IMG/VR virus record: IMGVR_UViG_3300014970_000006
Coordinates: 1 to 22,590 of that record
Strand: one strand, 5' to 3'
From: a virus
Lineage: Duplodnaviria > Heunggongvirae > Uroviricota > Caudoviricetes
DNA: 22,590 nucleotides
Position 1 is the first letter of the stretch. Every line of letters starts with the position of its first letter. The position numbers were made by a program, and so were the translations under genes. A model generated the notes under the pieces. That model did not search any database, was not told where the DNA came from, and was given only the letters and a program-made list of their open reading frames with translations. Positions 5,557-22,359 of this stretch are shown piece after piece.

Positions 5557-6267
5557 GTGTATGGAGCGCTGAGAAGTATGAATCAACAAGACTTGAATTT
5601 TGTCAGAATAGAACTACGTCGTGCGCTGTTTGACTTCTCTGGGGGGACAAAAGGGCAGCTTGAGGCTTTCACTGAACACCCACCAGCAGACAAAAATGCC
5701 ACTCCACGCCGTGGAATTCATCTTGTCGAACTCGAAGGTGATAAGGGACCACGCTTTGTTAACTCGCTTTCCGCGCCATTGTACGTGCAAGAAACACGTA
5801 GCCGCCCCAGGCCAATGCCGCCGATAAAAGATGTAGAATTTGAGTCCGCGCCGTGGCGTAGGGCAGTGTCCGCGCTTAGTGGATACCAGCAGGCTTGGTT
5901 GCGGTACTGTTACGGTTTTGACCTTAACTATACGCACCAGGTGATGATGTGTGAATACGTCTGGAAGGCTTATCAGAAATGCTTGGGTAAAAACTCACTT
6001 CAGGAGCGCGTAGTAAAAAAACTAATAGGCCTAGTATGGCTTGCAGGACAGGAAATTGCTGCAACCCGAAACAATGAAACCTATAAAGACTACGCTGGTG
6101 CGGCGCTGGCCCGTATGGTTAGCGTTGACCGTTCGACATGGTTGCGCGTCTATTCAGGCCACTGGGCTGGGTTAAAGGCCGCTTTTACCCAGCTTGATGA
6201 GTCTGCGCTGGCCATGGCTCTTGAATACTATGAGGATGAAGAAGCTCTCAAAGTGGGAGAAATATGA
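5557..6267 (+). CDS. Putative late-gene antiterminator (Q-like)
   Basis: Called mainly by position: immediately upstream of a promoter plus short-transcript terminator unit and the lysis cassette; no catalytic motif identified. Confidence 0.45.
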   Translation: MYGALRSMNQQDLNFVRIELRRALFDFSGGTKGQLEAFTEHPPADKNATPRRGIHLVELEGDKGPRFVNSLSAPLYVQETRSRPRPMPPIKDVEFESAPWRRAVSALSGYQQAWLRYCYGFDLNYTHQVMMCEYVWKAYQKCLGKNSLQERVVKKLIGLVWLAGQEIAATRNNETYKDYAGAALARMVSVDRSTWLRVYSGHWAGLKAAFTQLDESALAMALEYYEDEEALKVGEI

Positions 6268-6297
6268 CGTAAATTTCACTATCTCCTTCAAACGCGC

Positions 6298-6326
6298 TTG
6301 CAAAATACAACAAAATAAGCCATATT
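6298..6326 (+). promoter_or_regulatory. Candidate late promoter (PR'-like)
   Basis: TTGCAA, 17-nt spacer, CATATT; about 50 nt upstream of a strong intrinsic terminator. Confidence 0.3.
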
Positions 6327-6360
6327 GGAAGCATGTTTGATATGTTGCCAAAGTTTTATA

Positions 6361-6387
6361 AACCCGCCGACGAGCGGGTTTTTTGAT
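6361..6387 (+). terminator. Intrinsic terminator (tR'-like) ending a short leader transcript
   Basis: CCCGCCGACGAGCGGG hairpin followed by TTTTTT. Confidence 0.8.
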
Positions 6388-6460
6388 ATGCGACATAACC
6401 TATAACATTTTTTATAAAATAAAATATAATTGCTTTACCATTATCCTGTGAGTTGAGCAA

Positions 6461-7246
6461 ATGTATATATTTGAATTGACCAAACCTGGCAACTGGCTTG
6501 AAAGTGAAGACAAAGAGTGGTCTTGGAAAATAGAACGGCTTTTGGACCATCTTGAATTTGCATTTTATGAGGCTAATGTTGCATTAAATTTATTTATGCA
6601 GCAGCAAAACAATCAAATAGAACAACAAGGGGTTTCGCAATTGCAATGGGAAAAAGAAATGCAAGAACGAAGAACCATCGAAACACTAGTTCGTGAGGAG
6701 TTAGGTTTATCCCCTTTTGAGAATCCTGAAAACATACAATTTGAGGTGGACGCGAGGTTTAAACGAGAAAAGTGGAGTTCTGGTGAAATTCCACGTAGCC
6801 ACAAACATTGTGTGATTTTTATTTATGCAAAATCTTTTCTTTATTCTCTTGATACTATTGATAAATTTATAAAGGTTATTTCGAATGAACCTTATGCTCC
6901 TGAGTCGATAAAAGCCCTACACGATCAGATAGGTAAAGATTTTCCTGATCTCAGAGGGGTTAGGAATTCAACTCAACACCTCGAAGATAGGGCTCGAGGG
7001 CTTGGCGCAGGGAGAGAACCGAAGCCTTTGAATCTCCAGCCTATAAGTAATACCTTCATAAATGCACCGCAAGGTGCTTTGATATTAAATAATCTGAATG
7101 GCACCAAATTCGGGTCAACTATGTCTGATGGTCACTATGGTGAAGTGGACATTTCACCTGAATCGTTATCAAAAATGCAAAGTATTGTTCAGGGCGTTCT
7201 TGACTCGTTTAAGTGGGTTGGTAATCAGCAACACTTACCAAGTTAA
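6461..7246 (+). CDS. Moron-encoded 261-aa protein with HEPN-type RNxxxH motif; candidate abortive-infection or toxin RNase
   Basis: AT-rich ORF between Q and the lysis genes; TATAAT at 6425-6430 upstream; strong terminator downstream; motif RNSTQH in ...DLRGVRNSTQHLEDR... Confidence 0.65.
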   Translation: MYIFELTKPGNWLESEDKEWSWKIERLLDHLEFAFYEANVALNLFMQQQNNQIEQQGVSQLQWEKEMQERRTIETLVREELGLSPFENPENIQFEVDARFKREKWSSGEIPRSHKHCVIFIYAKSFLYSLDTIDKFIKVISNEPYAPESIKALHDQIGKDFPDLRGVRNSTQHLEDRARGLGAGREPKPLNLQPISNTFINAPQGALILNNLNGTKFGSTMSDGHYGEVDISPESLSKMQSIVQGVLDSFKWVGNQQHLPS

Positions 7247-7267
7247 CTAAACTTAATTATTCATATT

Positions 7268-7294
7268 AAGGCTGCCATATGGCGGCCTTTTTAT
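7268..7294 (+). terminator. Intrinsic terminator after the first moron
   Basis: AAGGCTGCC-ATAT-GGCGGCCTT hairpin followed by TTTTATT. Confidence 0.8.
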
Positions 7295-7339
7295 TCCCTT
7301 CACTTTTGAGAGGATTCACAGCAATTAAGAGGGGGCTAA

Positions 7340-7726
7340 ATGTCCGATCCGATTTCCGGCACAGGGTTAGCTGCTGGAGTCCTGACAGGCGCTAGTGTTT
7401 ATGGACTGCTGACCGGAACTGATTACGGTGTTGTATTTGGCGCATTTGCAGGGGCTGTATTCTACATCGCAACAGCAGCAGATCTGAGTTTATCGCGTCG
7501 ACTGGCATATTTTATCGTGTCGTATATTGCCGGAATCCTTTGCTCTGGGTTGGTTGGCTCCAAGCTGGCAAACTTGACCGGATACAGTGATAAACCTCTG
7601 GATGCTATTGGTGCCGTAATCGTCTCTGCTTTAGCCGTTAAAATCCTGACGTTTCTGAATAACCAGGATATCGGTTCGCTGGTGGCGCTTATAACGCGCC
7701 GGGGAGGTTCAGGTGGAGCTAAATGA
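7340..7726 (+). CDS. Putative holin (multi-transmembrane small membrane protein)
   Basis: 128 aa, Gly/Ala-rich hydrophobic segments, charged C-terminus; first gene of the lysis cassette upstream of the endolysin. Confidence 0.6.
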   Translation: MSDPISGTGLAAGVLTGASVYGLLTGTDYGVVFGAFAGAVFYIATAADLSLSRRLAYFIVSYIAGILCSGLVGSKLANLTGYSDKPLDAIGAVIVSALAVKILTFLNNQDIGSLVALITRRGGSGGAK

Positions 7727-7994
7727 CCCGACAGCAACTATAAATGCGCTGTTATGTGCTTGTGTTGTTATTACTCTGATGTTTTATCGTCGTGGTGATT
7801 CGCGGCATCGTCCTTGGGTTTCACGTTTAGCCTGGCTGATTACTGTTACATACAGTGCTGTTCCGTTGGCCTATCTCTGTGGGATTTATCCCCATTCCTC
7901 ATGGCCCATTATCGTGGCGAATACTATTTTTCTTTCCGTGCTGGTGGCCGTCAGAGGCAACGTTGCACGTCTGGTTGATCATCTGAGGCACTAA
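7713..7994 (+). CDS. Small membrane protein of the lysis cassette (second holin or antiholin-like)
   Basis: 93 aa with two or three hydrophobic helices; overlaps neighbours at both ends. Confidence 0.5.
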   Translation: MELNDPTATINALLCACVVITLMFYRRGDSRHRPWVSRLAWLITVTYSAVPLAYLCGIYPHSSWPIIVANTIFLSVLVAVRGNVARLVDHLRH

Positions 7995-8608
7995 TGAACC
8001 AACAATTATTTCAAAAGGCGGCTGGTATTAGCGCCGGGCTGGCTGCGCGCTGGTTTCCGCACATTGATGCGGCGATGAAGGAATTCGGCATTACAGCACC
8101 AGCGGATCAGGCAATGTTTATCGCTCAGGTAGGCCATGAGTCGATGGGGTTTAGCGCCGTAGTTGAAAATTTTAACTACACACCATCTGCGCTGGTGGCG
8201 TCGTTCGGAAAGAGGATTACACAGCAGCAGGCTGATGCCCTTGGCAGAACATCCGGACATGCAGCTCGTCAGGATGCTATTGCCAATCTTGTGTATAGCA
8301 ACCGACTGGGTAACAAAGCACCAGGTGATGGCTGGAAATATCGTGGTAGAGGATTAATTCAAATCACTGGCCTCCATAATTATCGCATCTGTGGCGCGGC
8401 GCTGAAGTTAGATCTGGTGACTTCACCTGAACAACTGGAACAGGAGCTACAGGCCGCGCGCTCAGCTGCATGGTTCTACACCTCTAAAGGTTGCATGGTC
8501 TACGGTACCGATATTAATCGTGTTACGCGCATCATTAACGGCGGTCTGAACGGTATTGAGGATCGTAAGGTTCGATACAACAAGGCGCGGGCGGCGCTGC
8601 TGGTATGA
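7994..8608 (+). CDS. Endolysin, glycoside hydrolase family 19 (chitinase-like lysozyme)
   Basis: 204 aa; FIAQVGHESMGF ... WKYRGRGLIQITGLHNY ... INGGLNGIEDR are typical GH19 endolysin segments. Confidence 0.85.
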   Translation: MNQQLFQKAAGISAGLAARWFPHIDAAMKEFGITAPADQAMFIAQVGHESMGFSAVVENFNYTPSALVASFGKRITQQQADALGRTSGHAARQDAIANLVYSNRLGNKAPGDGWKYRGRGLIQITGLHNYRICGAALKLDLVTSPEQLEQELQAARSAAWFYTSKGCMVYGTDINRVTRIINGGLNGIEDRKVRYNKARAALLV

Positions 8609-8997
8609 AGATGAGTTATTGGGCGCTCATTTTAACGTTTATTGCTTGTATTGCTGGTGGTCTTGTTTGGTCAGCGAATCACTATCATGGAAAGTTTCTG
8701 GAGGAGCAGAAGCGTGCTGACGCTGCGGAACAGCGAGCTGATTCTACTGAGGCTATCACCGCGAATGTTCTGCGTACTATGGCAATAACGAACATCATTC
8801 AGGAGGCGAATCAATATGCAAAACAGCAGATCGCACTGGAGTCACAGAGAACCCAGGAAGATATCAAAGTGGCTGTTGCGGATGATGATTGTGCTTCACG
8901 TCCTGTGCCTGCTGCCGCTGCTGACCGGTTGCGGAAGTACGCGAACAGTTTACGTGAGCATTCCGAAGACTCCACTACCAGTCAGCTTGACTTCTGA
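8605..8997 (+). CDS. Rz-like i-spanin
   Basis: N-terminal transmembrane helix, charged coiled-coil periplasmic domain, directly after the endolysin. Confidence 0.7.
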   Translation: MKMSYWALILTFIACIAGGLVWSANHYHGKFLEEQKRADAAEQRADSTEAITANVLRTMAITNIIQEANQYAKQQIALESQRTQEDIKVAVADDDCASRPVPAAAADRLRKYANSLREHSEDSTTSQLDF

Positions 8998-9333: not shown

Positions 9334-9840
9334 ATGCGACCAGATCAATTTTTCTATCCAGATACTTTTACCTTTAATTCATCCACCTATTATGGTCAAC
9401 GTGACTCATCTAAAGGTCGATTGTATATTCTTATTGAAAGTGACTTATGTCCATTTAATATCGGCGATATCATTGTGCAAAAAATGGTCGACAGGGAAAG
9501 ACTATTTGAAGTGCTTGATTACGAGGTACAAATTAGTCTCGAGGCTGGTTGCCCTGGCTACTCACATTTGGCGGTATTGATAGTGAAGGCATTGGATGTA
9601 AAAGAGAAGCCGAAGCAGATTACGACCCATTTGACGTTTAACGGTGCTATTAATGCTGGTGGTGATTTTCAAGCCGGTAATGACAATTCGATCACAAAGA
9701 ATATAACCATTCAACAACTACATGATGCTATAGAGCATTGCAATGATCCAGAGGTTAAAAGCCTTTGGCAAAAGCTATTGGAAAATCCGACGTTTGCTTC
9801 AATTGCTTCAATATTGGCAAAAAGTGCTTTAGGACAGTAA
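9334..9840 (+). CDS. Moron-encoded 168-aa protein of unknown function
   Basis: AT-rich ORF between the lysis cassette and HNH/terminase; AT-rich 200-bp upstream region; terminator immediately downstream. Confidence 0.6.
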   Translation: MRPDQFFYPDTFTFNSSTYYGQRDSSKGRLYILIESDLCPFNIGDIIVQKMVDRERLFEVLDYEVQISLEAGCPGYSHLAVLIVKALDVKEKPKQITTHLTFNGAINAGGDFQAGNDNSITKNITIQQLHDAIEHCNDPEVKSLWQKLLENPTFASIASILAKSALGQ

Positions 9841-10373: not shown

Positions 10374-10868
10374 ATGGCTGGAACGGCGGGGCGTTCCGGG
10401 CGTCGCCCCAAGCCAACGGCGCGCAAGGCGCTGGCCGGAAACCCCGGCAAGCGAGCCCTGAATAAAGATGAACCTGTTTTTACGCCCATCAAAGGTGTTG
10501 AGCCACCGGAGTGGTTCGCAGAAGAAAATCTCCCTCTCGCCACGATCATGTGGCAACTGACAACCAAAGAACTCTGCGGTCAGGGCCTGTTGTGCGTGAC
10601 TGACCTCGCGGTGCTTGAGCGGTGGTGCGTGGCCTATGAGTTCTGGCGACGTGCCGTGAAAAATATTGCCATACAGGGCAACACCATCACCGGTGCAATG
10701 GGCGGCAGGGTCAAAAATCCGGAGCTGACCGCCAAAAAAGAACAGGAGTCCGAGATGAGCAGCACGGGGGCAATGCTCGGACTCGACCCCAGCAGCCGCC
10801 AGCGTCTGATTGGCCTGGCGGGGCAGAAGAAAGCCACTAACCCGTTTCTGAAAATCATCGAGTCATGA
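10374..10868 (+). CDS. Terminase small subunit (P27/HK97-like)
   Basis: Basic N-terminus ([15 protein letters not shown]), size and position before the large terminase; AGGAG RBS 8 nt upstream of ATG at 10374. Confidence 0.8.
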
Positions 10869-11671
10869 GCCGGAAATCTTACCCCAACGTAAATGCTGCC
10901 AATCAGTATGCCCGTGATGTTGTGCGCGGAAAGATTGTGGCCTGCCAGTTTGTGATTCAGGCCTGCCAGCGCCATCTTGATGACCTGATGGCGGAAAAAA
11001 GTAAGTCGTTTCGTTACCGCTTCGACAAGGACCTGGCTGAACGGGCTGCCAAATTTATTCAGCTGTTGCCGCACACCAAGGGGGAGTGGGCATTCAAGAG
11101 GATGCCCATCACGCTGGAGCCGTGGCAGCTCTTTGTGATCTGCTGTGCGTTTGGCTGGGTCAATAAAGGCTCCCGGCTGCGCCGCTTCCGGGAGGTGTAT
11201 ACCGAAATCCCCCGTAAGAACGGCAAATCGGCAATCTCTGCCGGTGTTGCCCTGTATTGTTTTGCCTGTGATAACGAGTTTGGCGCGGAAGTGTATTCCG
11301 GTGCCACGACAGAGAAACAGGCGTGGGAAGTCTTTCGCCCGGCGCGACTGATGTGTAAACGCACACCCATGCTGACGGAAGCGTTCGGGATTGAGGTTAA
11401 CGCCTCAAACATGAACCGTCCGGAGGATGGCGCGCGGTTTGAACCGCTGATCGGTAACCCCGGTGATGGTTCATCACCCCACTGTGCCGTGGTGGATGAA
11501 TATCACGAGCACGCCACCGATGCGCTTTATACCACGATGCTTACCGGGATGGGCGCGCGACGTCAGCCACTGATGTGGGCCATCACCACCGCCGGGTACA
11601 ACATTGAGGGGCCGTGCTACGACAAGCGGCGGGAAGTTATCGAGATGCTCAACGGTTCGGTATGTTTCTGA
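10865..11671 (+). pseudogene. Terminase large subunit, N-terminal ATPase domain only (3'-truncated by deletion)
   Basis: Walker A-like [10 protein letters not shown] and Walker B-like [10 protein letters not shown] present; ORF stops after 268 aa with no nuclease domain; a Mu N-like reading frame follows. Confidence 0.8.
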
Positions 11672-11675
11672 TGCG

Positions 11676-12461
11676 ATGAAAGTGGTGGATTCTGCCGTAT
11701 CGGATGCCGCCAGGCTGTTGCAGGGGGATATCTCGGTACTTCTGCCGCCGCCATCGTCAGGCAAAAATTTCGTTGAGCAGGTGCAGAAAATGTGGCGTAC
11801 CGGGAAACGCCTTTATGGTAACGCCAGCGACCTGGTCACCATGATCAAAACGCTTTCCGGTGTCAGCCTCGGCAGCGATCTGCAACCGCGCGGCGTCTGG
11901 AAAACGGACAGTAAAACCACCGCCACGGCGACGCAGCAGCGTAACGTGGTTGCCAGCACCCTTCGTACGACCGCAATCAGCGAAGCGGCGTATGCCGTCA
12001 CCCGATTGCCTGCGCCAACAACTTCCGCGGTGATGCAGAATTCCGCAGTGGGGCAGGCAACAACACCCGCGCAGAGCACTGGCTGGCCTTCCATCACGCA
12101 TCCGGCACTGAACAATGCACCGGCGGTGAAAAACACGGTTGACCTGCCGACGTGGGAAGAACTGACTGACATTCGCGACACACTGAATACGGCAATTGAT
12201 AAGGAGTTGTCCCGTACAACCAGCGATGCGCTGTTTCTGGCGCTGCGCCGGGTGAAAGCAGATCTGAATGCGGATATCAACACGCGCCTTGAACAGTCTG
12301 CACGGATCATTCAGCGCACACCGGATGAGGTTTTACCCGCGCTGGTGCTGGCGGCGACCTGGTTTGATAACGCGGCGCGTGACGCGGACATTATCCGGCG
12401 TAATGCCATTACGCATCCCGGCTTTGTGCCGGTGATCCCTCTGAAGGTGCCAGTGCAATGA
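11676..12461 (+). pseudogene. Mu gpN-like (DNA circulation protein) C-terminal fragment
   Basis: Directly precedes a Mu-like baseplate block in Mu gene order; too short for a full-length N; starts at the deletion junction. Confidence 0.55.
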
Positions 12462-16133: not shown

Positions 16134-16883
16134 ATGCATCGTATAGACACGAAAACCGCGCAGAAGGATAAGTTCGGCGCGGGTAAGAACGGTTTTACCC
16201 GTGGTAACCCCCAGACCGGCACACCTGCCACCGATCTGGATGATGACTACTTTGACATGTTGCAGGAGGAGCTTTGCAGCGTTGTGGAGGCATCCGGTGC
16301 CAGCCTGGAGAAGGGGCGGCACGACCAGCTGCTTACCGCGCTTCGTGCGCTGCTGTTAAGCCGCAAGAATCCGTTTGGTGATATCAAATCGGATGGCACG
16401 GTGAAAACGGCTCTCGAAAACCTTGGTTTGGGAGAAGGCTCTGCATTACCTGTTGGTGTCCCTGTTCCGTGGCCTTCAGCCACTCCGCCAACAGGCTGGC
16501 TGAAATGCAATGGTGCGGCTTTTTCTGCTGAAGAATACCCGGAACTGGCAAAAGTTTACCCGACAAATAAATTGCCTGATTTACGTGGTGAGTTTATTCG
16601 CGGCTGGGATGACGGAAGAGGAATTGATACTAACCGTAGCTTGCTTTCATCACAGGGCGATGCCATTCGAAATATAATTGGTGCATTAGTGGATGTCAGG
16701 TTTAATACCTATCCTTCTGATTCTGGTGCTTTTACAACCAGCGTCATCGGAGATGCTTCATCTGATTCAATTAAAGGTGGTTATGCAAAGCGAGTAACAT
16801 TTGATGCTTCCAGAGTTGTTCCAACTGCAAACGAAAACCGTCCGCGTAATATTGCATTTAACTATATCGTGAGGGCAGCCTGA
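16134..16883 (+). CDS. Tail fibre protein: constant N-terminus fused to the currently expressed variable C-terminus
   Basis: Tail-collar-like segment [23 protein letters not shown]...[19 protein letters not shown]; the crossover site lies inside the gene at 16416-16437. Confidence 0.8.
16416..16437. repeat. Left hix/gix-like crossover site of the invertible segment
   Basis: GAAAACC-TT-GGTTTGGGAGAAG; inverted copy at 18220-18241. Confidence 0.75.
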
Positions 16884-17485
16884 TGCATAAAGCAATATTA
16901 AATAGTGAGCTTATTGCAACAAAGGCAGGGGATGTTACCGTTTATAACTACGATGGTGAAACACGGGAATATATTTCCACGTCAACTGAATATCTTGCTG
17001 TTGGTGTCGGTATTCCGGCATGTTCCTGTCTTGATGCACCTGGCATACATAAGGTTGGTTATGCAATCTGTCGTTCTGTGAATTTAAATTCATGGGAATA
17101 TGTGCCAGATCATCGCGGTGAAATCGTCTATAGCACCGAAACAGGAGAATCGAAAGAAATCACAGCTCCGGGTGATTATCCTGAAAATACAACCACTATC
17201 GCCCCGTTAACGCCATACGATGAATGGAATGGTGAGAAATGGGTGACAGATACCGAGGCACAGCACGGCGCAGCAGTAGATGCAGCAGAAGCACAGCGCC
17301 CGTTGCTGATTGATACTGCAATGGCCTCCATCAGTCTGATTCAACTGAAATTACAGGCCGGACGGAAGCTGACGCAGGCAGAAACAATCCGCCTTAACGC
17401 TGTGCTGGATTACATTGACGCGGTGACGGCAACAGATACCAGCACAGCGCCGGACGTCATCTGGCCTGAACTGCCGGAGGCGTAG
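16883..17485 (+). CDS. Tail fibre assembly protein (Tfa), active orientation
   Basis: 200 aa; C-terminal ...LDYIDAVTATDTSTAPDVIWPELP typical of Tfa chaperones. Confidence 0.8.
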   Translation: MHKAILNSELIATKAGDVTVYNYDGETREYISTSTEYLAVGVGIPACSCLDAPGIHKVGYAICRSVNLNSWEYVPDHRGEIVYSTETGESKEITAPGDYPENTTTIAPLTPYDEWNGEKWVTDTEAQHGAAVDAAEAQRPLLIDTAMASISLIQLKLQAGRKLTQAETIRLNAVLDYIDAVTATDTSTAPDVIWPELPEA

Positions 17486-17900
17486 GCCATTCAATATCTG
17501 GCGCACCGGAAGTATCGACCAGTTCCAGTGCGTCCAGATAATCCAGCCACAAATTATATTGCGCCAGTTCCTCACCTTTCAGACGACCAATTGATGCTTT
17601 ACCTGGCCATTGTTTACTGTTGATGTATTCGTTGGCCTGGTTAATCAATTGCTGCTTTTTAGTTTCGGCTGATGCAATTTGTTCTTCACGTGTTGGTGGA
17701 GGAATATCTGCCCATGCAGGCAGCCCATCCTCTCCGACACATCTGTATTTTCCTTCTGGTGGTGTATCATAGAAATATTCCCTGAAAATTACTTCGTCTA
17801 TATCAACACCTTTTTCTTCAGGCCATTCACCTTTTTCAACATAAAGAGACTGAAGTTCGTAAGGATATGCCAGGTTGTTTACGTACAGATATTTCATCAT
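17457..17900 (-). CDS. Alternative tail fibre assembly protein (Tfa'), inverted orientation
   Basis: 147 aa; C-terminal ...LDYLDALELVDTSGAPDIEWPTPP parallels the Tfa C-terminus. Confidence 0.75.
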   Translation of the reverse strand: MMKYLYVNNLAYPYELQSLYVEKGEWPEEKGVDIDEVIFREYFYDTPPEGKYRCVGEDGLPAWADIPPPTREEQIASAETKKQQLINQANEYINSKQWPGKASIGRLKGEELAQYNLWLDYLDALELVDTSGAPDIEWPTPPAVQAR

Positions 17901-18220
17901 TACCAGCCCTTAGCGAAAAACGCACCACCTTCAAGACCATAATTGCAGTGAGCTATGAAGCCGGTAGTGCTCCAATTGGTCGCCCCCCACATATTCCCGC
18001 CCCCGAAACCACCATCGCACACAATTACAATGCCCGGTGTCTGTGTAAATGGAATCGGGAATGAAACATTGGCGGATACAGGCCCGTGTTCACCAGGAAA
18101 ACTAATTCGTCCCCACTGTTCAATTGAACCATCTGGCATTTTTCGCCAGCCTGAACCTGATGCATATGATGACATATCAGGTATCTGATTTTCCCCTGTT
18201 CCCACATTTCGTTTTGCCGC
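17900..18220 (-). CDS. Alternative tail fibre variable C-terminal segment, promoterless until inversion
   Basis: Reading frame runs through the right crossover site; Gly-rich fibre-tip-like sequence; no independent start expected. Confidence 0.6.
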
Positions 18221-18241
18221 TTCTCCCAAACCAACGTTTAT
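18220..18241. repeat. Right hix/gix-like crossover site
   Basis: Reverse complement reads AAACGTTGGTTTGGGAGAAG, matching the left site over about 20 nt. Confidence 0.75.
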
Positions 18242-18300
18242 GAAAATGCAGAAATAACGAGCAAATGGCATCATTCCTGCTTTTGTCAGGGAGATCTACC

Positions 18301-18855
18301 ATGCTTATTGGCTATGTACGTGTGTCAACAAATGACCAGAACACAGATCTACAACGTAATGCGCTGAACTGTGCAGGATGCGAGCTGATTTTTGAAGACA
18401 AGATAAGCGGTACAAAGTCCGAAAGGCCGGGACTGAAAAAACTGCTCAGGACATTATCGGCAGGTGACACTCTGGTTGTCTGGAAGCTGGATCGGCTAGG
18501 GCGTAGTATGCGGCATCTGGTCATTCTGGTTGAGGAGTTGCGCGAACGTGGCGTTAATTTTCGCAGCCTGACGGATGCTATTGATACCAGCACACCGATG
18601 GGGCGTTTTTTCTTTCATGTGATGGGTGCCCTGGCTGAAATGGAACGAGAACTGATTGTTGAACGAACAAAAGCTGGACTGGAAGCTGCTCGCGCACAGG
18701 GACGAATTGGTGGACGTCGTCCCAAACTTACACCAGAACAATGGGCGCAGGCCGGGCGATTAATTGCATCAGGCGTTCCTCGCCAGAAGGTGGCGATCAT
18801 CTATGATGTTGGTATATCGACACTGTATAAGAAGTTTCCGGTCGGAGATAAATGA
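18301..18855 (+). CDS. pin: Serine DNA invertase (Pin/Gin/Hin/Cin family)
   Basis: MLIGYVRVSTNDQNTDLQRNAL... with catalytic Ser and C-terminal HTH (GRIGGRRPKLT...); AGGGAG RBS upstream of ATG at 18301; adjacent to the invertible segment. Confidence 0.93.
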   Translation: MLIGYVRVSTNDQNTDLQRNALNCAGCELIFEDKISGTKSERPGLKKLLRTLSAGDTLVVWKLDRLGRSMRHLVILVEELRERGVNFRSLTDAIDTSTPMGRFFFHVMGALAEMERELIVERTKAGLEAARAQGRIGGRRPKLTPEQWAQAGRLIASGVPRQKVAIIYDVGISTLYKKFPVGDK

Positions 18856-18912: not shown

Positions 18913-19782
<870 letters not shown>

Positions 19783-19872
19783 CTAATTCTTTGAATTTAC
19801 ATAGTAAAAAAAGATACTTTTCCTCATAGTGTGAGCTAATTTTATGTTTCGTTTGATGATCGGACCGGTCTC

Positions 19873-19912
19873 AAAAACCGCAGGCACGTTGTATGCAAGA
19901 ACGTGCTGTGGC
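19873..19912 (+). repeat. Hairpin repeat copy 2
   Basis: CCGCAGGCACGTTGTATGCAAGAACGTGCTGTGG; direct repeat of copy 1 with about 4 differences. Confidence 0.6.
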
Positions 19913-20067
19913 TGGCTGGGGAACTTCCAATAGTGCGAATATTAAATGATGTCCAGCCGTTACCGTTTTTACGTGTTTATTAGTGAACAAACCACTCGTC
20001 AGCAGACTCCTAGGTATGAACAAAAGTTTTAGCTGAAACTCTATCTGTGGTGCGCGTAACAGAAGTG

Positions 20068-20098
20068 TAATAAAAGGCCCTAGAAAAGGGCCTAAGAT
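20068..20098 (-). terminator. Intrinsic terminator after the small ORF
   Basis: On the minus strand: AGGCCCT-TTTCT-AGGGCCT hairpin followed by TTTATT. Confidence 0.65.
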
Positions 20099-20107
20099 TA
20101 GCAAAGA

Positions 20108-20251
20108 TTATCCTCGATACTTAGAGGCAGGAATTTTGATAGGAAAGGCTGCCAAGCCTTTTTGACGAGCAAAGATCCGTTTACCTTTGACCGTAATAAA
20201 AGGACGGTAAATTGTGATGTATTCCTCAGATACAGCTTTTTCAATGGTCAT
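20108..20251 (-). CDS. Small basic 47-aa ORF downstream of ImmA (below the ORF-track size cut-off)
   Basis: Hand-translated: MTIEKAVSEEYITIYRPFITVKGKRIFARQKGLAAFPIKIPASKYRG; ATG at 20251, TAA at 20108-20110, terminator immediately after. Confidence 0.35.
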   Translation of the reverse strand: MTIEKAVSEEYITIYRPFITVKGKRIFARQKGLAAFPIKIPASKYRG

Positions 20252-20277
20252 ATCGTGTTACCTGTAAAGTTTCGCTG

Positions 20278-20378
20278 TTGACAAAACCTAAGGTAAGCGT
20301 ATACTCACAACCGCCAAGTTTTTCGTATTTGCTTACGATAGGAGAAGCCAGCGACAGCGGTTCGCTGGCTTTTTCGTT
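20278..20378 (+). ncRNA. Candidate small RNA unit: near-consensus promoter plus terminator, convergent with the ImmA/small-ORF transcript
   Basis: TTGACA, 16-17-nt spacer, TATACT at 20278-20306; hairpin AGCCAGCG-ACAGCGGTT-CGCTGGCT plus TTTTT at 20346-20375; no ORF in between. Confidence 0.3.
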
Positions 20379-20910
20379 ATCTTTTTGCATTTTTTCTCAT
20401 CCAGGTTTCAGCCGCTTGTTGACTGACACCAAATGTTTTGCTTATATCTTCAACAGTCATTGTGGGCAAAACTAGTCTTGAGTCAATTAAGAAGTGGCTT
20501 GCAAAAACATCTGCTTGCCATTCGCTGTCTTCATAGATTTTATGCCCTCCACTAGTCTTATTACGTGCATAGATACTTTGATTGCGATGCATGACTAAAT
20601 GACCAAGTTCATGCGCAACAGTGAATCTCGCATGGTTCTCACCATTGCACACTGCATCGTAAACAGATCGCTGTAAAACAATTTTGTTCTTATCTGGATA
20701 AGTCACTGCATAGCGTTTGGGCAGTTCATGATCTTCAACAATTTCTAGCTCAATGCTTTCTGAGGCCATAAGACCTTCTAGTAATACATCCAGTCTCAGA
20801 TATGTGTGATTTGATATCTGAAGAACGTCTCTCAGACGATGAGCGTATGATTTAATCATGCTGGTGCTGAGAGGTGAAACGCGATGGCCAAGTTCTCGTT
20901 TCGCAATCAT
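20377..20910 (-). CDS. ImmA/IrrE-family zinc metallopeptidase
   Basis: HEXXH motif in FTVAHELGHLVMH; 177 aa; directly downstream of and nearly overlapping an XRE HTH gene. Confidence 0.85.
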   Translation of the reverse strand: MIAKRELGHRVSPLSTSMIKSYAHRLRDVLQISNHTYLRLDVLLEGLMASESIELEIVEDHELPKRYAVTYPDKNKIVLQRSVYDAVCNGENHARFTVAHELGHLVMHRNQSIYARNKTSGGHKIYEDSEWQADVFASHFLIDSRLVLPTMTVEDISKTFGVSQQAAETWMRKNAKR

Positions 20911-20913
20911 TAT

Positions 20914-21264
20914 TCAGTCCTTTAACATTTTATTAAGCTTATCGAGTTGCTCTGGACTCAGGTCCTTAAATTTACGAGCAAAAACAAGCATTAGTTCTTT
21001 GTTCTGCTCATTTGCATCCGACATATCAACCTTAATGGACGGTTGAGAAATCTCTGCCTGTTTCTTGAGATTGATGATGTCTTGTCCGCTAAGCTCAAAA
21101 GTTGTTGCAATCGTATTTACTAATGAGTCCGGTATAGCTCTTTTGCCTAATTCAATGGCGGATAAGTAAGCCGAACTAACGCCTAACAGATCAGCCATAT
21201 TTTTGAGCACCATACCCCGGTCTATTCTCATTTTTCTGAGAGTCTTACCAAAGCTAGTTACCAT
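20914..21264 (-). CDS. XRE-family helix-turn-helix transcriptional regulator
   Basis: LRKMRIDRGMVLKNMADLLGVSSAYLSAIELGKRAIP is a Cro/C1-type HTH; GGAGG RBS upstream of ATG at 21264. Confidence 0.85.
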   Translation of the reverse strand: MVTSFGKTLRKMRIDRGMVLKNMADLLGVSSAYLSAIELGKRAIPDSLVNTIATTFELSGQDIINLKKQAEISQPSIKVDMSDANEQNKELMLVFARKFKDLSPEQLDKLNKMLKD

Positions 21265-21546
21265 GTTGCGCCTCCTACAATCCATGCTCACTTATACTAA
21301 AAACCAAACTCAAGATCAACAAAAATTGTAGAATTTTTTAATCTCAGCGTGTGATGACAATCTACATAAAATCATGAAATGGTGCAAGGCGTAACTTAAA
21401 AAATACCACATGTAGTGTCAATTTTATGTGCTGTATGGATATATGGGGTTGGTAAACTTTTGCTCTTTTGTGCTCCTCAGCTATATGGTTGTTTGATTTT
21501 TGAACATCTTGTGGAACATAAATTGGGTTTATGCTTTTCCCTTTCG

Positions 21547-21574
21547 GTGACAACATGTTTATAGGATGTATAAT
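21547..21574 (+). promoter_or_regulatory. Sigma70-like promoter for the Bro-N gene
   Basis: GTGACA, 16-nt spacer, TATAAT; AAGGAGG Shine-Dalgarno 7 nt before the GTG start. Confidence 0.5.
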
Positions 21575-21597
21575 CCATAAAAAAAGGAGGGGATGGC

Positions 21598-22359
21598 GTG
21601 CAAAAGAATTTGTTACAATTATGCTACGAAGGAGAGTGTGGAGAAAATTATATCCGTAGCATGAATGAAAAAGGGCAGATTTTTGTTTCACTTTCAGATG
21701 TGCTAAGAACGCTTTCTGCTGAGAACAGAAAACTGGATGGAAAGACTTCTCAAAGCTTGCTCACTGTAATAAGAGCGGTAATAAAAACTTTAGATCCAGA
21801 TGAGTTTAGGAATGTTTCTCTTGTCGTGGATGGTGAAACTATCTCTGAGGTATTTCTTACTGAACCAGGTCTATATAGAGTACTTGCTCAGGATACTACT
21901 GCTGCGGGGAAAAAATTCCAACGCTGGCTTTTTCATCAGGTCCTTCCGTCTATTCGTGAATTTGGTGTATATCCTCCGCCACCTAAACAAGAACGTTCAG
22001 AACTGAGTGCTTTTGCTAACAGTCTGCAGCAGACGGTTCAAGCATTGGTAATGGAAATAGAAAAACGTGAAGAGTTAGAAAGTAGAGTAAACCAAGTTGA
22101 ACTAAAAGTTAACTCGTTAGAAAGTTTAAGAGATTTGTCTCAGTTCAGAAGTGTTCCTCAACGATTGATGGAGTTAGGTTTGGATACCTATTCAGTTGAG
22201 GAACTTTGGCAATGGTGTGAAAAATTGCGTAGTGAACGTGGAGCAGAAAGAATTAAGTGCCCCTCCGGATTGAATATAAATTCTTGCTATCCATTAGCTT
22301 TGGTTGATGAAGCTATCGCTATATACCAGAAAGTAGTTGAGGCAAGAACACGTCAGTGA
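21598..22359 (+). CDS. Bro-N domain protein (antirepressor-like) with coiled-coil C-terminus
   Basis: VFLTEPGLYRVLAQDTTAAGKKFQRWLFHQVLPSIREFGVY is a Bro-N signature; GTG start with strong SD. Confidence 0.8.
   Translation: MQKNLLQLCYEGECGENYIRSMNEKGQIFVSLSDVLRTLSAENRKLDGKTSQSLLTVIRAVIKTLDPDEFRNVSLVVDGETISEVFLTEPGLYRVLAQDTTAAGKKFQRWLFHQVLPSIREFGVYPPPPKQERSELSAFANSLQQTVQALVMEIEKREELESRVNQVELKVNSLESLRDLSQFRSVPQRLMELGLDTYSVEELWQWCEKLRSERGAERIKCPSGLNINSCYPLALVDEAIAIYQKVVEARTRQ

What the first reader, a model, noticed from the sequence alone, without database searches (positions are those of the whole stretch)
6388..7294. Moron between Q and the lysis cassette encodes a 261-aa protein with a HEPN-type RNxxxH motif
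The segment is AT-rich and self-contained: it sits between the tR'-like terminator and its own strong terminator, with a TATAAT element upstream. This is the slot where lambdoid phages carry lysogenic-conversion or defence cargo (stx in Stx phages, csp genes in Qin). The protein contains RNSTQH, the canonical R-[NQH]-x3-H form of the HEPN RNase motif, and I recognise no characterised family. A HEPN RNase expressed from a prophage moron would be a candidate abortive-infection or toxin effector. No partner gene is visible, so it would be single-gene or use an unseen partner.
Basis: partly seen in the sequence, partly recalled or inferred. Interest (0 to 1): 0.72.

Follow-up and report, generated by a model that had tools for sequence, protein, structure and literature searches.

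The report
Single-gene HEPN-like prophage cargo gene
A self-contained gene inserted between the late-gene activator Q and the lysis genes of a defective E. coli prophage encodes a member of a large, unnamed protein family that also travels as a one-gene integron cassette and as the only cargo of a tiny plasmid, and that most likely is a stand-alone RNA-cutting anti-phage protein, although this has not been tested experimentally.

Summary
ORF 6461-7246 (261 aa) carries RNSTQH at residues 168-173 in an AT-rich insert (about 6385-7267/7294). The insert lies between a tR'-like terminator and a second terminator and has its own TATAAT promoter. The motif alone is weak evidence (6% of shuffles), but R168 and H173 are each kept in 59 of 61 divergent homologues, with N or D after the R. 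The family is large (970 clusters at 50% identity), about 260 aa, always a single architecture, with no Pfam, NCBIfam or PADLOC model. It needs no partner. It recurs as a moron behind three Q types, as a one-gene integron cassette in at least five lineages, and as the only cargo of a 4.2-kb plasmid. It also sits next to DRT9, CBASS and type I R-M genes. HEPN membership is only partly shown. The motif, an upstream D131-x3-K135 and a coevolution-derived four-helix layout match the published HEPN definition. No profile search links it to a HEPN family, and fold searches return only generic helical bundles. Best reading: a new stand-alone HEPN-like defence or abortive-infection RNase family (confidence about 0.45). 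It is a new member of a known kind and a good experimental candidate.

The parts
5557..6267 (+). Q antiterminator gene (context; left flank of the cargo slot)
   Evidence: Pfam PF06323 3.2e-37, PHROG 304
6298..6326 (+). Tentative late promoter pR' (TTGCAA-17-CATATT) upstream of the tR'-like terminator
   Evidence: Read from the sequence. It is below the threshold of the promoter scan. An analogous TTGCAA-16-TATATT lies upstream in L049. Inference only.
6360..6387 (+). tR'-like intrinsic terminator (8-bp G+C-rich stem, loop 6, T tract); left edge of the insert
   Evidence: Q-side homology with other prophages ends at about 6384. An equivalent terminator is present in 14 of 20 related morons.
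6402..6430 (+). Own sigma-70-like promoter ATAACA-17-TATAAT, about 30 nt upstream of the ATG
   Evidence: 10 of 12 matches. A promoter-like site with a -10 of at least 5/6 lies in the upstream spacer in 17 of 20 divergent morons, with an exact TATAAT in 14.
6461..7246 (+). CDS, 261 aa, cytoplasmic (no TM segment or signal peptide, pI 5.35); member of an unnamed family (PHROG 5322; WP_000275196.1)
   Evidence: dN/dS is 0.09-0.22. AF2 model has pLDDT 89.3 and pTM 0.83.
6851..6865 (+). D131-x3-K135 in helix 112-141: candidate second acidic active-site element (equivalent of HEPN Ex3[KR])
   Evidence: D131 is kept in 56 of 61 and K/R135 in 56 of 61. Coevolution puts this helix antiparallel to the motif helix with D131 opposite R168/N169. 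Criterion from PMC3710099.
6962..6997 (+). R168-N-S-T-Q-H173-L-E175-D176-R177-A-R179: conserved catalytic-looking cluster containing the Rx4H motif
   Evidence: Invariant in A1. In A2: R 59/61, N38/D22, H 59/61, E 55, D 54, R 58.
7106..7150 (+). Beta hairpin, residues about 216-230 (invariant or near-invariant T220, G224), predicted to pack on the motif helix; candidate lid or sensor
   Evidence: DSSP strands 216-220 and 226-230. DCA ladder 215-230, 218-226, 221-227, and contacts 167-229, 171-217, 167-221.
7268..7297 (+). Intrinsic terminator (9-bp stem, loop 4, T tract) closing the cassette; shared with some prophages carrying other cargo
   Evidence: a terminator about 20 nt after the stop codon in 18 of 20 related morons.
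7340..8997 (+). Lysis cassette (two holins, GH19 endolysin, Rz spanin); right flank of the slot

Best explanation
The segment is a horizontally mobile one-gene cargo unit (a moron). In the lysogen it is probably transcribed from its own sigma-70 promoter and insulated by terminators on both sides. After induction, Q-modified RNA polymerase would read through it into the lysis genes. Its product is a soluble 30-kDa protein of a large uncharacterised family that works without any partner gene. The most likely function is a stand-alone anti-phage (abortive-infection type) effector with a HEPN-type metal-independent RNase site. That site would be R168-[N/D]169-x3-H173 at the end of the third core helix, helped by D131 on the neighbouring helix. 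A beta module built from the N-terminus and residues about 190-261 packs on that site and is proposed to keep the enzyme silent until an infection cue is sensed. Shown here: the anatomy, family-wide conservation, autonomy and mobility, purifying selection, and the helix packing from coevolution. Inferred: RNase chemistry, gating by the beta module, expression pattern, and anti-phage role.
Confidence: 0.45

Rival explanations
1. It is a conflict or defence effector, but not an RNase. The conserved R168/H173/E175/D176/R177/D131 cluster would bind or process something else (a nucleotide, a phage protein, DNA) on a helical-bundle scaffold that only resembles HEPN by convergence.
For: Same mobility and context evidence as the main explanation. 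No profile link to HEPN. Fold hits are generic bundles. The extra invariant E-D-R-x-R after the His is not part of the HEPN signature. The protein is acidic.
Against: R-[N/D]-x3-H plus an upstream acidic residue on the adjacent helix, in the order predicted for HEPN, would be a notable coincidence.
Confidence: 0.2
2. It serves the phage and not the lysogen: a late-expressed accessory gene (host takeover, counter-defence, or competition with other mobile elements) that is read through from pR' under Q control, as stx is.
For: It lies downstream of Q and the tR'-like terminator, so it would be transcribed at high level after induction. In 49 IMG/VR contigs it is prophage-borne.
Against: Its own conserved promoter and flanking terminators indicate Q-independent expression. 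The family is common outside phages: integron cassettes, small plasmids, defence islands and lone chromosomal insertions. It is absent from all 50,697 deposited phage genomes. The host prophage here is defective (truncated TerL, no head genes), yet the gene is kept at 99.8% nucleotide identity or more in 25 genomes.
Confidence: 0.12
3. It is the toxin of a toxin-antitoxin or addiction module whose antitoxin was not seen (a small overlapping ORF, an antisense RNA or a cis-acting RNA, as described for some AbiF-type HEPN genes).
For: HEPN toxins often have antitoxins, such as HepT/MntA. An RNA-based regulation of a phage AbiF system is reported (PMC12373285, title and abstract). It is the only cargo of a small plasmid and lies near TA genes on other small plasmids.
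Against: No conserved neighbour. The integron cassette holds only about 20 nt upstream and the attC directly downstream. No Rfam hit at or near any family's gathering score, only sub-threshold leader-like hits on the two terminators. Promoter-like sites on the minus strand are no more frequent than in shuffles.
Confidence: 0.08
4. It is ordinary non-conflict cargo (a regulator, a stress or metabolic accessory protein) that happens to carry a conserved R/H cluster.
For: Many loci have only housekeeping neighbours, for example the Chromobacterium locus between PTS/amylase genes and regulators. All databases call it hypothetical.
Against: Recurrent capture by four different kinds of mobile cargo platform, low GC relative to hosts, and repeated adjacency to known defence genes are typical of conflict genes. 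There is no DNA-binding or metabolic domain signal.
Confidence: 0.1

Closest known systems
[quoted passage not shown]
   Same: A single protein of about 200-350 aa, all-alpha catalytic core, R-[N/D/H]-x3-5-H motif with an upstream acidic-x3-K element (seen directly in MAE_28990 family alignment A5). Carried on prophages, plasmids and integron cassettes, and no obligatory protein partner.
   Different: No detectable sequence-profile relationship to any of them. An extra alpha2-alpha3 hairpin between core helices 1 and 2. A beta module formed by the N-terminus and residues about 190-261, inserted between the motif and the last core helix. An invariant E-D-R-x-R directly after the His. No phenotype known.
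[quoted passage not shown]
[quoted passage not shown]
   Different: HepT needs the adjacent MNT nucleotidyltransferase antitoxin. No such neighbour exists at any of about 100 loci.
Csx1/Csm6 HEPN domains
   Same: [quoted passage not shown] The query family also has beta structure right after the motif that coevolves with the motif helix.
   Different: No CARF domain, no CRISPR association, no sequence similarity.
Lambdoid morons of the Q-to-lysis slot (stx in Stx phages; cargo slot downstream of pR'/tR')
   Same: Same position, flanking terminators, foreign base composition, exchangeable cargo.
   Different: The cargo is a cytoplasmic protein of unknown function, not a secreted toxin. It has its own conserved promoter.

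Membership tests
HEPN superfamily (definition of Anantharaman et al. 2013, PMC3710099) | Conserved Rx4-6H motif | tested here: met
   R168 is kept in 59 of 61 and H173 in 59 of 61 members down to 30% identity, with a spacing of 4.
HEPN superfamily (definition of Anantharaman et al. 2013, PMC3710099) | Residue after the R is polar, mostly N, D or H | tested here: met
   Position 169 is N in 38 and D in 22 of 61.
HEPN superfamily (definition of Anantharaman et al. 2013, PMC3710099) | Second conserved acidic residue upstream in helix-2, typically Ex3[KR], lying next to the motif | tested here: inconclusive
   D131 (56/61)-x3-K/R135 (56/61) lies in helix 112-141. It is D, not E. Proximity to R168/N169 is inferred from 7 register-consistent DCA pairs (p 9e-4) that are individually below the null maximum. 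Coordinates could not be inspected.
HEPN superfamily (definition of Anantharaman et al. 2013, PMC3710099) | [quoted passage not shown] | tested here: inconclusive
HEPN superfamily (definition of Anantharaman et al. 2013, PMC3710099) | Sequence-profile link to an established HEPN family (Pfam clan KNTase_C) | tested here: not met
   No Pfam hit for the query or for 61 members at E up to 10. hhalign gives 1.5% against AbiV and 0.2% against MAE_28990. The control between the two true HEPN families also gives 0.2%, so the hhalign part has no power. A full HHpred run against all HEPN profiles was not possible.
HEPN superfamily (definition of Anantharaman et al. 2013, PMC3710099) | Metal-independent endoribonuclease activity that depends on R and H | not testable with these tools
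   Needs biochemistry.
Known anti-phage defence systems (PADLOC-DB 2.0) | Match to a model of a known or candidate defence protein | tested here: not met
   0 families at E up to 10.
Anti-phage defence gene (operational definition) | Co-location with known defence genes or defence islands | tested here: inconclusive
   DRT9, a CBASS cyclase, an NsnB/AriA-like ATPase, Shedu SduA and SAVED-HNH effectors occur among 130 immediate neighbours. There is also a type I R-M / RES island and an AbiV cassette nearby. Many loci have only housekeeping neighbours. No formal background rate was computed.
Anti-phage defence gene (operational definition) | Protects cells or populations from phage | not testable with these tools
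   Needs phage-challenge experiments. The accession is not found in any held paper or in the held DefensePredictor supplements. Key screens (Brenes and Laub 2025; Darracq, Kieffer and Getz 2025) could not be read or matched by sequence.
Prophage moron | Discrete insert absent from related prophages, with foreign composition | tested here: met
   Flank homology stops at about 6384 and resumes at 7267-7307. Other cargo occupies the same slot. GC is 0.36-0.39 against about 0.50.
Prophage moron | Own promoter and terminator | tested here: met
   Consensus-level signals, conserved in most of 20 divergent copies. Actual transcription was not tested.
Integron gene cassette (for the family, not for the window copy) | Single ORF bounded by attC recombination sites within a cassette array | tested here: met
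   L108 has 14 VCR-type repeats, with the gene between copies at 7861-7982 and 8790-8926. L006, L007 and L108 have both flanks above the 99% level of the shuffled null. L008, L010, L011 and L014 share one cassette behind different upstream attC sites. L012 has GCCCAAC...GTTGGGC. The window copy has no attC.
Two-gene toxin-antitoxin module | Conserved adjacent partner gene or RNA | tested here: not met

The most novel reading that the evidence does not exclude
The family is a previously uncatalogued class of partner-less immune sensor-effector. A HEPN-like RNase site is capped by a built-in beta-hairpin module that acts as the infection sensor or lid. The unit is compact enough (about 0.8-0.9 kb) to be trafficked interchangeably by lambdoid prophage morons, integron cassettes, minimal plasmids and defence islands across Proteobacteria.
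Probability: 0.35. Interest if true: 0.62.

Novelty: new member of a known kind. Interest (0 to 1): 0.5.

Why it matters
If confirmed, this would add a large, widespread family to the catalogue of single-gene anti-phage RNases. The family has 970 clusters at 50% identity, spans beta-, gamma- and deltaproteobacterial lineages and beyond, and is currently unannotated. It would also give a clean example of one defence gene moving between four different cargo platforms: the prophage Q-lysis slot, integron cassettes, minimal plasmids and defence islands. The same gene is a one-gene cassette and the only cargo of a 4.2-kb plasmid, which makes it a very tractable test case for how a HEPN nuclease can be kept harmless without an antitoxin. 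It also marks the Q-to-holin slot of CPS-53/lambdoid E. coli prophages as a cargo hotspot worth mining. If it turns out not to be a nuclease or not defensive, the family still deserves a name and a Pfam entry.

Tried and rejected
- Pfam, NCBIfam and PADLOC scans of the query gave no hit. A Pfam scan of 61 divergent members gave only scattered single chance hits.
- Foldseek against PDB and BFVD gave nothing significant. AFDB50 was unavailable.
- hhalign against AbiV and MAE_28990 HEPN families was negative, but the HEPN-versus-HEPN control was equally negative, so the test is uninformative. AbiV is also an atypical HEPN according to PMC3710099.
- The partial homologue L056 (Solirubrobacterales) looked like a possible domain-level variant. 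It is a frameshifted pseudogene remnant.
- The Rfam scan for an RNA partner gave only sub-threshold leader-like hits on the two terminators.
- The first attC scan with strict RYYYAAC/GTTRRRY cores missed the VCR- and Idiomarina-type sites. It was replaced by a relaxed core with an arm-complementarity score and a shuffled null.
- Literature: no paper in the library mentions WP_000275196. It is not in the stored DefensePredictor supplements, some of which are truncated. The Tai system paper concerns a different locus.
- No match was found in the 50,697 deposited phage genomes, by DNA or by protein.

Full report
**1. The observation**

The window holds an ATG-initiated ORF at 6461-7246 (+), 261 aa. 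Its translation contains G-V-R-N-S-T-Q-H-L-E-D-R, with R168 at 6962-6964 and H173 at 6977-6979. GC drops to 0.36-0.39 across 6201-7200 against about 0.50 on both sides.

The upstream gene (5557-6267) is a Q antiterminator (PF06323, 3.2e-37). Downstream come two holins, a GH19 endolysin and an Rz spanin. A terminator hairpin with a T tract lies at 6360-6381. A sigma-70-like promoter ATAACA-17-TATAAT lies at 6402-6430. A second terminator lies at 7268-7289.

The one caveat concerns the motif. R-[NDHQ]-x3-H occurs in 6.4% of shuffles of this protein and in 8.5-12.6% of unrelated ORFs from the fetched loci. In a single sequence it is therefore not beyond chance.

**2. It is a discrete, exchangeable insert**

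A search of 5,426 complete E. coli genomes with 5700-7900 shows where flank homology stops. Q-side homology (for example the Nissle 1917 prophage) ends at window position about 6384. Holin-side homology resumes at 7267/7268, 7294 or 7307.

In those prophages the slot holds other cargo:
- In Nissle 1917, an SDH-family Clp-fold serine proteinase and a DNA methyltransferase.
- In other strains, unrelated 198-aa or 85-aa hypothetical proteins.

The hairpin at 7268-7289 is shared with some of these prophages, so it may belong to the slot and not to the gene. The exact insert is present in full length at 99.8% identity or more in 25 genomes. A further 29 of the 5,426 genomes match only part of the query. 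RefSeq calls the product hypothetical (WP_000275196.1).

The surrounding element is a defective mosaic prophage. In order it carries an integrase, an O-like replication gene, KilA-N, DUF968, Q, the moron, the lysis genes, a second AT-rich orphan ORF, HNH, TerS, a TerL reduced to its ATPase domain, Mu-type baseplate genes, an invertible tail-fibre segment with an invertase, and then an AT-rich arm.

**3. The family**

The word-indexed search found 416 homologues, all about 261 aa, none with a Pfam domain, and all named hypothetical where named at all. The closest are enterobacterial. Members from Limnobacter, Chromobacterium, Acinetobacter, Vibrio and Desulfuromonadales are still 51-55% identical. 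The exhaustive profile search found 970 clusters at 50% identity, 435 of them below 1e-30, again with one architecture.

The only library hit is PHROG 5322, of unknown function. There is no Pfam, NCBIfam or PADLOC hit.

dN/dS is 0.22 between close alleles and about 0.1 between distant ones. The gene's GC is below that of its flanks in 84 of 93 loci, by 9 points on average. The protein has no hydrophobic segment and a pI of 5.35.

**4. The gene works alone and is highly mobile**

*Prophages.* In enterobacterial prophages the gene always lies between Q and the lysis genes. The Q belongs to three different clusters and the lysis cassette to three types. In 20 such copies, whose proteins share as little as 37-60% identity, the layout is largely conserved:
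- a terminator about 100 nt upstream in 14;
- a promoter-like site with a -10 of at least 5/6 in the upstream spacer in 17 (an exact TATAAT in 14);
- a terminator about 20 nt after the stop codon in 18.

*No partner.* Outside the enterics no neighbour recurs. The most frequent Pfam family among 130 immediate neighbours is seen twice, and intergenic distances are large.

*Integron cassettes.* In Vibrio parahaemolyticus the gene lies in an array of 14 VCR-type repeats and is bounded by copies at 7861-7982 and 8790-8926. It is therefore a one-gene integron cassette. With a relaxed attC detector and a shuffled null, both flanks are significant in L006, L007 and L108. Four Idiomarinaceae loci carry the identical cassette (5' end GTTATGCTCTTAGGAGTATATGCA|ATG, same downstream attC) behind four different upstream attC sites. 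L024 and L009 show the same structure, and L012 (Neisseriaceae) has classic GCCCAAC...GTTGGGC cores. The cassette leaves about 20 nt upstream and nothing downstream for any partner.

*Plasmids.* Nine plasmids carry the gene. On the 4,168-bp Psychrobacter plasmid pA53P1 it is the only gene besides rep, a relaxase and mobC.

*Other checks.* Rfam finds no RNA element. No deposited phage genome carries the gene.

**5. Defence context**

Among immediate neighbours at non-enteric loci are:
- DRT9 (2e-222, L007, itself a cassette);
- a CBASS cyclase (3.5e-168, L022);
- an NsnB/HEC-03/AriA-type ATPase (L098);
- Shedu SduA and SAVED-HNH effectors.

In a Desulfuromonadales MAG the gene lies between a ParS/RES toxin-antitoxin pair, an AAA_21 ATPase and a type I R-M system. 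The Vibrio array also holds an AbiV cassette.

Recent work reports that integron cassettes are rich in anti-phage systems (abstract of 10.1101/2024.07.02.601686; 10.64898/2026.03.17.712381). On the other hand, many loci are lone insertions among housekeeping genes, and I did not compute a formal background rate. The context is suggestive, not proof.

**6. Is it HEPN?**

The criteria were taken from Anantharaman et al. 2013 (PMC3710099).

(a) *The Rx4-6H motif.* Met. R168 and H173 are each kept in 59 of 61 members down to 30% identity.

(b) *A polar residue (N, D or H) after the R.* Met, with N in 38 and D in 22.

(c) *A second acidic residue upstream in helix-2, typically Ex3[KR].* D131 (56/61)-x3-K/R135 (56/61) in helix 112-141 is a good candidate. 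A bona fide MAE_28990 HEPN family shows the same pair of elements, E85-x3-K89 and R206-N-x3-H211.

- Fifteen pairs exceed the maximum of a column-shuffled null, including beta-ladder pairs, a5-a7, a1-a4 and a4-a7.
- In the top 80 pairs, a1 x a4 has 12 pairs (p 1.5e-4, antiparallel).
- In the top 80 pairs, a4 x motif helix has 7 pairs (p 9e-4, i+j of 299-318). This places D131 opposite R168/N169 and K135 opposite E175.
- a5 x a7 is antiparallel (p 0.01).
- The a2-a3 hairpin contacts none of the core helices.

The core is therefore a1 / a4 / a5-a6 / a7. The acidic residue is in the second core helix, and the motif is at the end of the third core helix, followed by a long loop. This matches the canonical description. 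The hairpin 216-230 (T220, G224) coevolves with the motif helix (167-229, 171-217, 167-221), which recalls the beta hairpin after the motif in Csx1.

(f) *Sequence profiles.* Not met. No HEPN or Abi model is hit by any of 61 members. hhalign gives 1.5% against AbiV and 0.2% against MAE_28990. The control between these two true HEPN families also gives 0.2%, so that test cannot discriminate.

Overall, the defining sequence features are met and the topology is consistent by an independent method. Homology itself is not demonstrated.

**7. Mechanism proposed**

*Shown:* a one-gene, horizontally mobile cargo unit under purifying selection, encoding a cytoplasmic protein. Its conserved polar residues (D131, R168, H173, E175, D176, R177, T220) concentrate on two packed helices and an adjacent hairpin.

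*Inferred:*
- The gene is transcribed in the lysogen from its own promoter and insulated by the terminators. After induction it is read through by Q-modified polymerase.
- The protein is a HEPN-type metal-independent RNase.
- Since it has no antitoxin, it must be held inactive, plausibly by the beta module that covers the site, until a phage cue releases it. It would then cleave RNA and abort the infection.

Confidence in this whole chain is about 0.45. Confidence that it is some kind of conflict or defence effector is about 0.65.

**8. Rivals**

- A non-RNase conflict effector on a convergent bundle (0.2).
- A phage-benefit late gene (0.12). Arguments against: its own promoter, its abundance outside phages, and its retention in a defective prophage.
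- A toxin with an unseen RNA or embedded antitoxin (0.08). Argument against: the minimal cassette.
- Ordinary cargo (0.1).

**9. Novelty and verdict**

Single-protein HEPN abortive-infection and defence genes on prophages, plasmids and integrons are a known kind. This family is not in Pfam, NCBIfam or PADLOC 2.0. It is not mentioned by accession in any held paper, nor in the stored DefensePredictor supplements. I could not read several recent screens, so prior experimental testing cannot be excluded.

I rate it a new member of a known kind, with interest 0.5. It is not surprising in principle. It is, however, a large, clean, unannotated family with unusually strong evidence of autonomy, and it is easy to test.

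Noticed in passing
window 9334-9840 (+): A second AT-rich (GC 0.35-0.40) orphan ORF of 168 aa lies between the Rz spanin and the HNH/TerS genes. It has no Pfam hit and matches PHROG 5789 (unknown function, 1.5e-77). It looks like another moron-type cargo gene.
   Followed up: partly
window 10865-12461: The large terminase is reduced to its ATPase domain (268 aa). It is followed by an unassigned ORF and then directly by Mu-type baseplate genes (gp44/P, gp45, gp46, J, gp48). No portal, capsid, sheath or tube genes are present, so the prophage is a deletion derivative and probably defective.
   Followed up: partly
window 16134-18855: A tail-fibre gene with a collar domain and a tail-fibre assembly gene on the + strand are followed by an inverted second set on the - strand (17457-18274) and a Resolvase/HTH_7 invertase (18265-18855). 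This is an invertible host-range segment of the Gin/Pin/Cin type.
   Followed up: partly
window 18913-22359: An AT-rich arm (GC about 0.40) carries a 274-aa LEM-3-like GIY-YIG protein (PHROG 5356, unknown function) on the - strand, an M78/IrrE-type metallopeptidase with an adjacent HTH regulator (20377-21291, -), and a Bro-N protein (21598-22359). This may be further accessory or regulatory cargo at the prophage end.
   Followed up: no
L111 (E. coli Nissle 1917, NZ_CP007799.1 2062529-2069213): In the Nissle 1917 prophage with a 92%-identical Q gene, the region downstream of Q holds two small hypothetical genes, an SDH-family Clp-fold serine proteinase and a DNA methyltransferase. So the slot is a multi-gene cargo hotspot there.
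   Followed up: no
L007 275-1897 and flanking repeats: In Photobacterium sanctipauli a full-length DRT9 reverse transcriptase (2e-222) sits directly upstream of the homologue. The VCR-type attC between the two genes fits DRT9 being an integron cassette as well, but its own upstream boundary was not examined.
   Followed up: partly
L114 (Psychrobacter plasmid pA53P1, NZ_MN657115.1, 4168 bp): This minimal mobilisable plasmid has the homologue as its only non-backbone gene. Small Acinetobacter and Proteus plasmids carry it next to RelE/ParE and YafQ/DinJ toxin-antitoxin pairs.
   Followed up: partly
query residues 140-207 versus PDB 4r77 (choline kinase LicA) residues 145-212: There is a 68-residue similarity (profile E 0.0035) that includes VRN....LE.R...LG..R and a D-L-x-P..N..I..PQG.L.L stretch resembling a kinase catalytic loop. 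The key positions are not conserved in the family, so it is judged to be chance, but it is unusually long for a chance match.
   Followed up: yes
query residues 1-16 and 190-261: The invariant P9-G10 and the N-terminal strands coevolve with the C-terminal strands and with helix 233-248 (pairs 14-251, 8-259, 4-236, 6-244). The helical core is therefore an insertion within a split beta module.
   Followed up: partly
L056 6001-6677 (Solirubrobacterales MAG): A frameshifted remnant of the gene (residues about 161-260 only) shows that the family reached Actinobacteria and has decayed there.
   Followed up: yes
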